From Candidatus Omnitrophota bacterium (lineage in GTDB: Bacteria > Omnitrophota > Gorgyraeia > Zapsychrales > JAHFFX01): a DNA stretch of 64,000 nucleotides. The notes under the pieces are model-generated. The model had not been told where the DNA came from. It saw only the letters and a program-made list of their open reading frames with translations, and ran no database searches. The translations under genes were made by a program, and so were the position numbers. Location: assembly GCA_023247725.1 (NCBI GenBank), contig JAHFFW010000008.1:7359-71358 (forward strand), read 5' to 3'. Positions 7,106 to 7,897 of this stretch are shown here, one piece after another (the first letter of the stretch is position 1; the number at the start of each line of letters is the position of its first letter).

Positions 7106-7808
7106 AGGGCTCGTCAAAAGTTACGGGGGCCGTCGGGTCGTGGATGGATTGAGCATTTCCGTCGGGCGCTCGGAAATCGTCGGATTGCTAGGCCCCAACG
7201 GAGCGGGAAAAACCACGACCTTTTATATGGCGGTCGGCATCATCAGCCCGGATGAAGGCAAGATCCTTTTCGATCAGGACGACATTACCCGTAAACCCAT
7301 CCATGACCGCTGCCGGCTGGGAATGGGTTATTTGGCTCAGGAGCCTTCGATCTTCCGGAAATTAACCGTTGCCGAAAACATCATGGCCATACTGGAAACC
7401 CTTCGCTTAAGTCCCCGGGAACGGCGTCGGCGGTTGAATTCGCTTCTCGAGGAGCTGAAAATTGCGCATCTTGCGAAGAGTAAGGCCTACACGCTTTCCG
7501 GCGGAGAACGGCGGCGTTTGGAAATCACCCGGGCCCTGGTCACGAATCCTTCATTTTTGCTTTTGGATGAACCTTTTTCCGGCATCGATCCGATTGTGGT
7601 GGCCGAAGCGCAGGAAATCATTAAGGGATTAAAAAATCGCGGTTTGGGGATTCTGTTGACCGATCATAATGTGAGGGAAACTCTTTCCATCACGGACAGG
7701 GCTTATTTGATCGCCGAGGGAAGAGTCCTTATTTCCGGTTCCGCTCAGGATTTGATCAACGATCCAAGGGCACGGAAGATTTATTTGGGGGAGAAGTTTA
7801 GCATGTAG
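7086..7808 (+). CDS. lptB: LPS export ABC transporter ATP-binding protein
   Basis: [46 protein letters not shown] (Walker A), the [11 protein letters not shown] signature and [12 protein letters not shown] (Walker B). Confidence 0.93.
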   Translation: [240 protein letters not shown]

Positions 7809-7897
7809 GGATTTAGGGATTAAGGGGATTAGGGATTTGGGGGGTTGGGGAATAAGGTTGATTGAATAACCCCCAACCCCCCCAAATCCCTAAATCC
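7808..7897. repeat. Telomere-like G-rich tandem units (TAGGGATT/AGGGGATT/GGGGGG) forming a ~27-bp stem inverted repeat with a 19-nt loop; G-quadruplex-capable
   Basis: Seen directly. GGGATTAGGGATTTGGGGGGTTGGGG (7825-7850) is near-perfectly complementary to CCCCAACCCCCCCAAATCCCTAAATCCC (7870-7897). Extra GGGATTTA units lie upstream. No U-tract follows. Confidence 0.8.

What the first reader, a model, noticed from the sequence alone, without database searches (positions are those of the whole stretch)
7808..7897. Telomere-like G-rich tandem repeat forming a ~27-bp stem hairpin between lptB and tig
Units of TAGGGATT / AAGGGGATT / AGGGATTTGGGGGG (the vertebrate telomeric TTAGGG motif) are followed by their near-perfect reverse complement CCCCAACCCCCCCAAATCCCTAAATCCC. 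This gives a stem of about 27 bp, longer than most intrinsic terminators, and there is no U-tract. The G strand has at least six G3+ tracts and can form a G-quadruplex; the C strand can form an i-motif. It lies just 3' of the lptB stop and 26 nt before the tig SD. It could be a transcriptional insulator or pause site, a REP-like element, or a recombination or protein-binding site.
Basis: seen in the sequence. Interest (0 to 1): 0.55.

Follow-up and report, generated by a model that had tools for sequence, protein, structure and literature searches.

The report
G-rich repeat hairpin between lptB and tig
This is a real, very stable hairpin made of short G-rich repeats and their mirror image, wedged between two genes of an uncultured Omnitrophota bacterium; it belongs to an already described class of G-rich bacterial repeats, is absent from close relatives, and is of modest interest.

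Summary
Window 7806-7853 is an array of about six 8-nt units (TAGGGATT and variants). It starts on the lptB stop codon. A 20-nt loop follows, then a C-rich mirror arm (7868-7908). As RNA it folds into a 32-bp hairpin (7816-7906, about -59 kcal/mol) that ends 2 nt before the tig Shine-Dalgarno sequence. It is the only canonical G-quadruplex motif on either strand of the 64-kb window.

It is not a conserved regulatory RNA. Across 85 Omnitrophota lptB-tig junctions the spacer is 9-298 nt. 38 of them are 38 nt or shorter and hold only a ribosome-binding site. One of the two closest relatives has a 30-nt spacer. Long spacers carry unrelated hairpins.

It is also not a detectable dispersed family. 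There is one copy in 64 kb and none in 0.97 Mb of related Omnitrophota DNA.

It matches the G-rich, quadruplex-capable repeats of Rehm et al. 2015 in unit type, in its position at a stop codon and in its inverted G-arm-then-C-arm pairing. I found similar arrays in many phyla.

The most likely behaviour is a REP-like intercistronic hairpin in a read-through lptB-tig transcript. A quadruplex could form only transiently. The function is inferred, not shown.

The parts
7086..7808 (+). lptB (LPS export ABC ATPase), the last gene of a kdsA-kdsD-kdsC-lptC/A-lptB string. Its TAG stop (7806-7808) is the first three bases of the repeat array.
   Evidence: NCBIfam TIGR04406 equivalog, 355.6 bits, cutoff 240. 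Pfam ABC_tran, with a fused LptC+LptA-like protein upstream. Gene order.
7806..7853 (+). G-rich arm: six 8-nt units TAGGGATT, TAGGGATT, AAGGGGAT, TAGGGATT, TGGGGGGT, TGGGGAAT, with six G3+ tracts. It is the only canonical quadruplex motif on the + strand of the window.
   Evidence: TRF period 8, 4.6 copies. Direct-repeat family D1. PQS scan and G4Hunter +1.73.
7816..7906 (+). Predicted RNA (or single-stranded DNA) hairpin of 32 pairs: 7816-7821/7901-7906, 7824-7827/7895-7898, 7829-7844/7878-7893 and 7845-7850/7871-7876. C7877 is bulged.
   Evidence: MFE -59.0 kcal/mol, centroid identical, 0 of 200 shuffles as stable. The structure is unchanged when quadruplex energies are allowed. As DNA the energy is -30.7 kcal/mol.
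7851..7870 (+). A/T-rich loop of 20 nt, AATAAGGTTGATTGAATAAC.
   Evidence: Fold.
7868..7908 (+). C-rich arm, an inverted copy of the inner G arm. The 43-nt stretch measured (7868-7910) holds 23 C and 1 G. It is the only C-strand quadruplex/i-motif pattern in the window.
   Evidence: Arm-to-arm alignment: the inner ~24 nt are identical apart from one extra G, and the outer units are phase-shifted. Composition and G4Hunter -1.98.
7909..7914 (+). tig Shine-Dalgarno sequence AAGGAG. It starts 2 nt after the stem and lies outside the long hairpin in the MFE structure; its GAG forms only a weak 3-bp local helix.
   Evidence: Sequence and fold. SD-like AAAGG/GGAGG is the only content of the short spacers in relatives.
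7924..8814 (+). tig (trigger factor, 296 aa, N- and C-terminal domains only, no PPIase domain), followed by clpP at 8872-9480.
   Evidence: Pfam Trigger_N + Trigger_C and CLP_protease. TIGR00115, 190.4 bits.

Best explanation
What it is (well supported): a lineage-specific palindrome made of a G-rich simple-sequence repeat. Its units are of the GGG(G)ATT(N) type, and it has the G-arm then C-arm inverted-pair layout already described for G-rich, quadruplex-capable bacterial repeats. It has filled an originally short lptB-tig intercistronic spacer, running from the stop codon to just before the tig ribosome-binding site. The C arm mirrors the irregular inner unit order of the G arm. This points to an inverted duplication of one particular array (slippage plus fold-back or template switching, inferred) rather than two independent expansions.

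How it most likely works (inferred): lptB and tig are transcribed together and the element is part of that RNA. Once the C arm emerges it pairs with the G arm into a 32-bp hairpin that leaves the tig SD outside the stem. The hairpin would then behave like a REP element in three ways:
- As a barrier to 3'-to-5' exonucleases, it would stabilise the upstream lpt message and set a different lpt:tig RNA ratio.
- It would be at most a partial attenuator of read-through.
- Because the strong stem begins 8 nt after the stop codon, it could hinder ribosomes terminating on lptB.

A G-quadruplex in the 5' arm is possible only briefly, before the C arm is transcribed.
For: Identity:
- Repeat, hairpin and quadruplex motif.
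- The class is described in PMC4692102. [quoted passage not shown] It reports 70-75 convergent inverted pairs per Xanthomonas genome, and quadruplex formation by (GGGGATT)4 and (GGGATTG)3GGG oligonucleotides shown by CD.
- My genome scan found at least 120 stretches with GGGATTWRGGGATTWRGGG, clustered in particular genomes: Thermoguttaceae, Oscillatoria, Xenococcus, Chloroflexia, Caldilineaceae, Chitinophaga, Desulfobacterales and others.
- In those loci the G-rich sense strand lies within 15 nt of an ORF stop in 36 of 99 cases, against 8 of 97 for the C-rich strand (p = 2e-6).
- 23 of 24 paired arrays have G-then-C polarity (p = 3e-6). The window element obeys both rules.

Lineage-specific insertion:
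- The lptB-tig adjacency is kept in every locus where the upstream DNA is present: 82 junctions plus 3.
- Spacers are 9-298 nt. 38 of the 85 are 38 nt or shorter and hold only an SD.
- The relative with 72% Tig identity has a 30-nt spacer. The one with 73% has a 116-nt hairpin built from different units, GGTTGTA.

Read-through and REP-like behaviour:
- There is no room or consensus for a promoter between the stem and tig, and no U-tract.
- The other long co-directional spacers of this window also carry stable hairpins right after the stop codon, with no U-tract or a very short one.
- The window encodes Rho (46839-48215). This fits the E. coli picture in which REP hairpins stabilise 3' ends but do not terminate (PMC12642595).
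- REPs fewer than 16 nt from a stop codon lower translation of the upstream gene (PMC12306157). Here the stem starts 8 nt after the stop.
- 17 of 26 lptB-tig spacers of 80 nt or more have z <= -3, against 38 of 103 other long co-directional spacers in the same loci (Fisher p = 0.014).
Against: - There are no expression data. Every functional step is inferred.
- Half of the relatives manage with no hairpin here, so whatever it does is dispensable at the level of the phylum.
- Only one strain is available, so there is no evidence of selection on the pairing.
- The known class is defined by high copy number per genome. Here there is one copy in 64 kb and none in 0.97 Mb of related DNA.
- The unit is 8 nt, not 7.
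- The authors of the class found no function for it.
- The G-then-C polarity of the class is not explained by hairpin stability, so the REP-like picture may be incomplete.
- The position statistics rest on crude ORF calls (longest ORFs of 90-100 aa or more). The spacer z-scores use mononucleotide shuffles.
Confidence: 0.5

Rival explanations
1. Neutral by-product. The element is a simple-sequence array that expanded by replication slippage and was copied in inverted orientation by template switching. It is tolerated because a self-paired insert between a stop codon and an SD harms neither gene. It has no function.
For: - It is absent from one of the two closest relatives (30-nt spacer) and from about half of all lineages.
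- The sequence turns over completely between relatives.
- The element fills exactly the space between the two constrained features, the stop codon and the SD.
- Two other Omnitrophota lineages have arrays of different units that also start on the lptB stop codon (L003 and L137).
- Rehm et al. could assign no function to the class.
Against: - Long lptB-tig spacers are more often strongly structured than other long spacers (17/26 against 38/103, p = 0.014).
- Across phyla the class shows a strict G-then-C polarity (23:1) and a strand-specific position relative to stop and start codons. Pure slippage does not predict either.
Confidence: 0.3
2. Operon insulator. The hairpin is a U-tract-independent terminator or strong pause site that ends the kds-lpt transcript, and tig-clpP is transcribed separately.
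For: - It is a very stable GC-rich stem directly after the last gene of the LPS string.
- One relative (L006) has a hairpin followed by a T7 run at this position.
- Other gene-end hairpins in this window also have no U-tract or a very short one, so this organism may not need one.
Against: - There is no U-tract, and the pattern scan calls no terminator.
- Stem and loop (32 bp, 20 nt) are far outside the usual terminator geometry.
- Only 17 nt lie between the stem and the tig ATG, so tig would have no promoter of its own downstream of the stem.
- 38 of 85 relatives have spacers of 9-38 nt that cannot hold a terminator or a promoter.
- Hairpins without U-tracts in a Rho-containing bacterium are reported to protect 3' ends rather than terminate.
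Confidence: 0.1
3. Non-B structure switch. The G arm folds into a quadruplex (in RNA, or in the non-template DNA strand) before the C arm can pair. This pauses RNA polymerase or leaves the C-rich arm single-stranded as a Rho loading site, giving a cation-dependent attenuator upstream of tig.
For: - It is the only canonical quadruplex motif in 64 kb, with G4Hunter +1.73.
- Near-identical oligonucleotides form quadruplexes in vitro (PMC4692102).
- The isolated 5' arm prefers a quadruplex (-10.5 against -1.9 kcal/mol).
- The C arm has 23 C and 1 G in 43 nt, and rho is encoded in the window.
- The unexplained G-then-C polarity hints that arm order matters.
Against: - The hairpin is about 50 kcal/mol more stable than the quadruplex alternative once both arms exist.
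- Cyanobacteria lack Rho yet show the same polarity.
- There is no experimental support in any bacterium for this class.
Confidence: 0.05
4. Member of a dispersed mobile palindromic family (REP/REPIN or MITE-like) of the source genome that happened to insert here.
For: - Presence/absence polymorphism at one site among relatives, and colonisation of the same site by unrelated palindromes.
- In other phyla, palindromes with fixed ends GCCGGGATT...AATCCCGGC recur within and between genomes.
Against: - There is one copy in 64 kb and none in 0.97 Mb of Omnitrophota DNA.
- I saw no target-site duplication or terminal inverted repeats distinct from the array.
- No transposase was seen among the 18 window proteins scanned.
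- The arms are simple repeats rather than a unique sequence.
Confidence: 0.05

Closest known systems
G-rich quadruplex-forming simple-sequence repeats, GGGAATC (Xanthomonas) and GGGGA(C/T)T (Nostoc PCC 7120); Rehm et al. 2015, PLoS One, PMC4692102
   Same: - Short tandem unit with a G3-4 tract followed by A(T/C)T.
- At least four G tracts.
[quoted passage not shown]
- Frequent convergent inverted pairs able to form stem-loops.
- Unit number and sequence vary between close relatives.
- Function unknown.
   Different: - The unit is 8 nt (range 7-9), not 7.
- There is a single copy in 64 kb, against roughly 90-190 arrays per genome.
- The host is Omnitrophota, a phylum not covered by that study.
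- The array overlaps the stop codon itself.
REP (repetitive extragenic palindromic) elements of Enterobacteria and Pseudomonas
   Same: - Transcribed, GC-rich intercistronic hairpin without a U-tract, close to a stop codon.
- Expected to protect upstream mRNA from 3' exonucleases.
[quoted passage not shown]
   Different: - REPs are 20-40-nt imperfect palindromes of unique sequence, in hundreds of copies, mobilised by RAYT transposases.
- This element is about 100 nt, built from simple repeats, and is a single copy as far as could be seen.
Cyanobacterial STRR (short tandemly repeated repetitive) heptamers, and the TAACTGA heptamer arrays of Beggiatoaceae, Cyanobacteria and Bacteroidetes (PMC4679880)
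   Same: Arrays of 7-8-nt units in intergenic DNA next to gene boundaries, with a patchy distribution across distant phyla and no known mechanism.
   Different: Those are mostly direct arrays of other units, close to start codons, and are not G-quadruplex motifs. The STRR comparison rests on my own knowledge (Mazel et al. 1990) and was not tested here.
Intrinsic (Rho-independent) terminator
   Same: A GC-rich hairpin immediately after the last gene of a functional gene string.
   Different: There is no U-tract. The stem has 32 bp and the loop 20 nt, against the usual 5-20 bp and 3-8 nt. No promoter can follow before tig.
Telomeric repeats (TTAGGG / TTTAGGG)
   Same: They share a G3 tract with T/A spacers and the ability to form quadruplexes.
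   Different: The element is internal, lies between two genes, has six units of 8 nt, and is followed by its own complement. It has nothing to do with chromosome ends.

Membership tests
G-rich quadruplex-forming SSR (Rehm 2015 class) | Tandem units of about 7 nt with G3-4 followed by A(T/C)T, at least 2 units | tested here: met
   Six units of TAGGGATT type, TRF period 8. The unit is one base longer than the published heptamer.
G-rich quadruplex-forming SSR (Rehm 2015 class) | At least four uninterrupted G3+ tracts with short loops (quadruplex motif) | tested here: met
   GGGATTTAGGGATTAAGGGGATTAGGG at 7808. It is the only such motif on the + strand of the window, and the C arm holds the only one on the - strand.
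G-rich quadruplex-forming SSR (Rehm 2015 class) | Intergenic, G-rich strand on the sense strand within 50 bp downstream of a stop codon | tested here: met
   The array starts on the lptB TAG. The same rule was reproduced in 120 loci from other phyla.
G-rich quadruplex-forming SSR (Rehm 2015 class) | Pairs occur in convergent orientation (G arm 5', C arm 3') | tested here: met
   The window has G arm 7806-7853 and C arm 7868-7908. 23 of 24 pairs in other genomes have this polarity.
G-rich quadruplex-forming SSR (Rehm 2015 class) | Strong over-representation, with tens to hundreds of arrays per genome | tested here: not met
   There is one element in 64 kb and none in 0.97 Mb of related Omnitrophota loci.
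G-rich quadruplex-forming SSR (Rehm 2015 class) | Quadruplex formation shown biophysically | not testable with these tools
   Only in silico: a quadruplex is favoured for the isolated arm but not for the whole element. CD data exist for very similar oligonucleotides.
REP / REPIN | Many dispersed, near-identical copies in the genome | tested here: not met
   Single copy in the window. The whole genome was not available.
REP / REPIN | 20-40-nt imperfect palindrome with a conserved GTAG or CGTC end tag | tested here: inconclusive
   GTAG occurs at 7804-7807, but it is the last lptB codon plus the stop (ATG-TAG). Relatives have ATGTGA or ATGTAA there. The element is about 100 nt.
REP / REPIN | Cognate RAYT (Y1) transposase in the genome | not tested
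   Only 18 of about 57 window proteins were scanned against Pfam, and none is a transposase.
Intrinsic terminator | GC-rich hairpin followed directly by a U-tract | tested here: not met
   The stem is followed by CCAAGGAGCACTC. The terminator scan finds nothing in the spacer.
MITE | Terminal inverted repeats flanked by a target-site duplication, in multiple copies | tested here: not met
   No duplication is visible at 7800-7806 / 7906-7915. Single copy.
Any curated RNA family (Rfam 15) | Match at or above the gathering score | tested here: not met
   There are no hits in the window or in nine related loci. In E-value mode there are only far sub-threshold matches, nearly all to eukaryotic miRNA-precursor models (generic long hairpins).

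The most novel reading that the evidence does not exclude
GGGATT-type G-arm-then-C-arm palindromes would be a cross-phylum class of gene-boundary elements whose arm order matters mechanistically. The G arm would fold co-transcriptionally (as a quadruplex or an R-loop) and compete with hairpin closure. In Rho-containing hosts such as this one, that competition would decide whether the C-rich arm is exposed as a Rho loading site. The element would then be a cation- or speed-sensitive attenuator that tunes tig-clpP expression relative to LPS export.
Probability: 0.06. Interest if true: 0.65.

Novelty: new member of a known kind. Interest (0 to 1): 0.25.

Why it matters
For this locus, little. It is an isolated, strain-level example of a repeat class that is already described, and many relatives do without it.

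Three results go somewhat beyond the locus:
- The class reaches Omnitrophota and, in the scan, many other phyla.
- The published position rule and the strict G-then-C polarity hold in an independent set of 120 loci. Neither has an explanation, and both argue that the class is not plain slippage noise.
- The lptB-tig junction of Omnitrophota is a natural series running from 9-nt spacers to 300-nt hairpin-filled spacers. It could be used to test what such hairpins do to the expression of two adjacent housekeeping genes.

Tried and rejected
- Rfam at gathering scores on the window and on nine related loci found nothing. In E-value mode the matches were far sub-threshold and nearly all to eukaryotic miRNA-precursor models, that is, generic long hairpins.
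- The tRNA/tmRNA scan of the window found nothing.
- The promoter/terminator consensus scan of 7000-9000 found nothing in the spacer. Omnitrophota promoter types are unknown, so this is weak evidence.
- My gapless inverted-repeat census of the Omnitrophota loci was too strict. It missed the window element itself because of the one-base bulge, so I used it only qualitatively.
It therefore cannot say whether the source genome holds more copies.
- The viral-contig scan gave 19 stretches. By my rough estimate of the collection's size this is near chance level. I did not follow it up.
- Telomere reading: rejected on location and unit length.
- Coding reading: rejected, because no ORF of 50 aa or more crosses the spacer.
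- Assembly-artefact reading: judged unlikely, because three assemblies agree.
- Conserved riboregulator reading: rejected, because the sequence and even the presence of a long spacer are not conserved.
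Full report
**1. The observation**

The window between 7806 and 7908 reads TAGGGATT TAGGGATT AAGGGGAT TAGGGATT TGGGGGGT TGGGGAAT, then a 14-nt A/T-rich stretch (7854-7867) between the two arms, then AACCCCCAACCCCCCCAAATCCCTAAATCCCAAGATCCCCC. Tandem Repeats Finder reports the 8-nt period on the G side (7806-7842, 4.6 copies) and on the C side (7880-7906). The repeat finder reports arms 7816-7850 / 7872-7906 at 80% complementarity.

As RNA, 7806-7926 folds at -59.0 kcal/mol into one hairpin of 32 pairs between 7816 and 7906, with a 20-nt loop (7851-7870). 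None of 200 dinucleotide-preserving shuffles folds as well (z = -4.5, and for a wider stretch). The z-score is moderate because any G-rich plus C-rich sequence folds strongly.

The two arms are true inverted copies. The inner ~24 nt, including the irregular ...TTAGGGATTTGGGGGGTTGGGG part, are identical apart from one extra G. The outer units are out of phase.

The element holds the only canonical quadruplex motif on each strand of the 64-kb window and has the highest G4Hunter scores. No T-run follows it.

The flanking genes are lptB and tig by curated equivalog models. Three assemblies carry the identical sequence, but they are one strain, 100% identical over 9-11 kb.

- The array starts on the lptB stop codon.
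- The full stem ends 2 nt before the tig SD (AAGGAG, 7909-7914).
- The unit is an octamer, not TTAGGG.

**2. The organism and the locus**

Named Tig homologues come from Candidatus Omnitrophota. The gene string is heptosyltransferases, kdsA, kdsD, kdsC, lptC/A, lptB, then tig, clpP. Almost all genes of the window lie on the + strand.

**3. Is it conserved?**

I collected 85 Omnitrophota lptB-tig junctions. They are the window, six relatives fetched by exact protein look-up and 77 loci from a metagenome scan with a Tig alignment; L007 repeats the L006 junction. The adjacency is kept wherever the upstream DNA is present. The spacer, however, ranges from 9 to 298 nt. 38 spacers are 38 nt or shorter and hold nothing but an SD.

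The two closest relatives disagree with each other. L208 (Tig 72% identical) has a 30-nt spacer with no hairpin. L003 (73%) has a 116-nt spacer that forms a hairpin of about 40 bp, with arms made of a different repeat, GGTTGTA/GGTTTTA (-57.3 kcal/mol, z = -8.6). L004 carries three unrelated strong hairpins. L006 carries a weak hairpin with a T7 run. L137 carries a 298-nt nested palindrome whose arms are again simple repeats (AGACCAWA, ATTTGTR).

So the short spacer is most simply the original state. The long hairpins are lineage-specific insertions or expansions, and the sequence in the window is not conserved anywhere.

Long lptB-tig spacers are more often strongly structured than other long co-directional spacers of the same loci (17/26 against 38/103 with z <= -3, p = 0.014). 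Strong hairpins are nevertheless common in long Omnitrophota spacers in general (median z = -2.2).

**4. Is it a dispersed family?**

There is one copy in the window. A permissive pattern finds no GGGATT-type array in 0.97 Mb of Omnitrophota DNA other than the window element. Arrays of 5-10-nt units with 3 or more copies are rare there: 18 in 0.97 Mb. Three of them start exactly on the lptB stop codon (window, L003, L137). A similar G-rich palindrome sits in the tig-clpP spacer of L174. The remainder of the source genome could not be read.

**5. What kind of thing is it?**

My rough estimate of the chance expectation for the entire collection is about 70. That estimate comes from 17 effective specified bases and 596 Gb on both strands, and no tool produced it.

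The hits are clustered in particular genomes. One Chloroflexia MAG has 8 stretches, Thermoguttaceae SPRUCE 569 has 8, Oscillatoria PCC 10802 has 7, Xenococcus PCC 7305 has 4, and there are others in Bacteroidota, Desulfobacterota, Verrucomicrobiota and Acidobacteriota. Many are G arm, loop, C arm palindromes like the one in the window. Several sit between a stop codon and the next start codon (for example L116, L057, L048).

The literature search found the class already described. Rehm et al. 2015 (PMC4692102) characterised GGGAATC repeats in Xanthomonas and GGGGA(C/T)T repeats in Nostoc. They report that these repeats are:
- intergenic and mostly between co-directional ORFs;
- preferentially four units long;
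- arranged as 70-75 convergent inverted pairs per Xanthomonas genome;
- able to form quadruplexes as oligonucleotides, shown by CD;
- variable between close relatives;
- of unknown function.

In my independent set of 120 loci the same grammar holds. G-rich sense arrays lie within 15 nt of an ORF stop in 36/99 cases, against 8/97 for C-rich ones (p = 2e-6). 23 of 24 pairs are ordered G arm then C arm (p = 3e-6). The window element fits all of this except copy number and the one-base-longer unit.

**6. How it most likely works**

- Shown: the hairpin is far more stable than any quadruplex alternative once both arms exist. With ViennaRNA quadruplex energies allowed, the MFE is unchanged at -59.1 kcal/mol. 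A quadruplex wins only for the 5' arm alone, -10.5 against -1.9 kcal/mol.
- Shown: no promoter can fit in the 17 nt between the stem and the tig ATG, and there is no U-tract.
- Shown: the window encodes Rho. Its other long co-directional spacers carry stable hairpins right after the stop codon, with no U-tract or only a very short one.
- Inferred: lptB and tig are co-transcribed, as they must be in the 38 relatives with short spacers. The element folds on itself and leaves the tig SD outside the stem. It then acts like a REP element, as a 3'-exonuclease barrier and at most a partial attenuator. REP hairpins stabilise 3' ends but do not terminate (PMC12642595).
- Inferred: because the strong stem begins 8 nt after the stop codon, it may impede ribosomes finishing lptB. 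REPs fewer than 16 nt from a stop codon lower translation (PMC12306157).

A purely neutral origin remains a serious rival. An efficient terminator, a quadruplex switch and a mobile family are less likely, for the reasons given under the rivals.

**7. Comparison and novelty**

The element is a new member of a known kind, the G-rich quadruplex-capable repeat in its inverted-pair form, in a phylum where it had not been reported. It fails the class criterion of abundance in the DNA I could read. It works like a REP but is not one. It is not a telomere repeat, not a canonical terminator and not any Rfam family.

**8. Limits**

- There are no transcript data.
- Only one strain is available.
- ORF calls for the position statistics are crude.
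- The z-scores use mononucleotide shuffles.
- The genome scan was truncated.
- Omnitrophota promoters are not characterised.

Noticed in passing
L008-L127 (genome-contig hits), e.g. L027 3762-3815 and 7208-7261, L079 1356-1406, L081, L086 6746-6800, L120 6351-6409, L116 3444-3501: Short palindromes with fixed ends, GCCGGGATT(A/T)GGGGATT..loop..AATCCCC(T/A)AATCCCGGC, recur within Oscillatoria genomes. They also occur in Chloroflexota (Caldilineaceae, Promineifilaceae, MAG278) and in a Zixibacteria MAG. They look like a REP-like family shared between phyla.
   Followed up: partly
L008-L127: Paired GGGATT-type arrays are almost always ordered G arm then C arm (23 of 24). G-rich sense strands hug stop codons, while C-rich sense strands hug start codons. 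Hairpin stability alone does not explain this polarity.
   Followed up: partly
window 7924-8814, and about 900 homologues: Omnitrophota trigger factor is about 296 aa, with Trigger_N and Trigger_C domains only. The central PPIase domain is missing throughout the family.
   Followed up: no
window 7086-9480; L003, L004, L006, L128-L210: The lptB-tig(-clpP) gene order is kept in every Omnitrophota locus where it could be checked (85 junctions). The spacer varies from 9 to 298 nt and is colonised by unrelated hairpins.
   Followed up: yes
L004 9868-9925, and the lptB-tig spacers of L131, L140 and L147: Four otherwise different spacers share a hairpin module, CACCCAGCACTAATTTT..AAAATTAGTGCTGGGT.AATTCGC. 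It may be a small conserved RNA or a repeat family. There is no Rfam match.
   Followed up: partly
lptB-tig spacers of L129, L157, L174, L207, L192/L193; also L155: Recurrent motifs CATCCTGAGGAGCGAAGCGACGAAGGAT and CGTCATTGCGA...TCGCAATGACG appear in several spacers. They look like dispersed palindromic repeats of uncultured bacteria.
   Followed up: no
L174 10905-10975: Another Omnitrophota genome has a G-rich/C-rich repeat palindrome (TAGGGTATAGGGGGGAGGGTTT..AAACCCTATCCCCTAAACCCTA) in the tig-clpP spacer.
   Followed up: partly
window 6254-7105: A single 283-aa protein carries both an LptC domain and an LptA/LptD_N domain, apparently a fused LptC-LptA.
   Followed up: no
window 35974-36019 and 46707-46760: Two more long GC-rich hairpins without U-tracts lie right after stop codons. 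One is an 18-bp perfect stem whose arm contains ATCCGG(G)TC repeats. The other lies in the 140-nt spacer upstream of the rho gene (46839-48215).
   Followed up: partly
window 52934-60795: A low-GC (0.40-0.47) defence island encodes DUF6088 plus an AbiEii nucleotidyltransferase toxin, followed by a type I restriction-modification system (HsdM, an unknown ORF, HsdS, HsdR).
   Followed up: partly
window 15432-15543: An inverted repeat with 48-nt arms (83% complementary) lies at the 5' end of the OmpA-family ORF. The annotated start may be wrong, or the repeat may lie in a leader.
   Followed up: no
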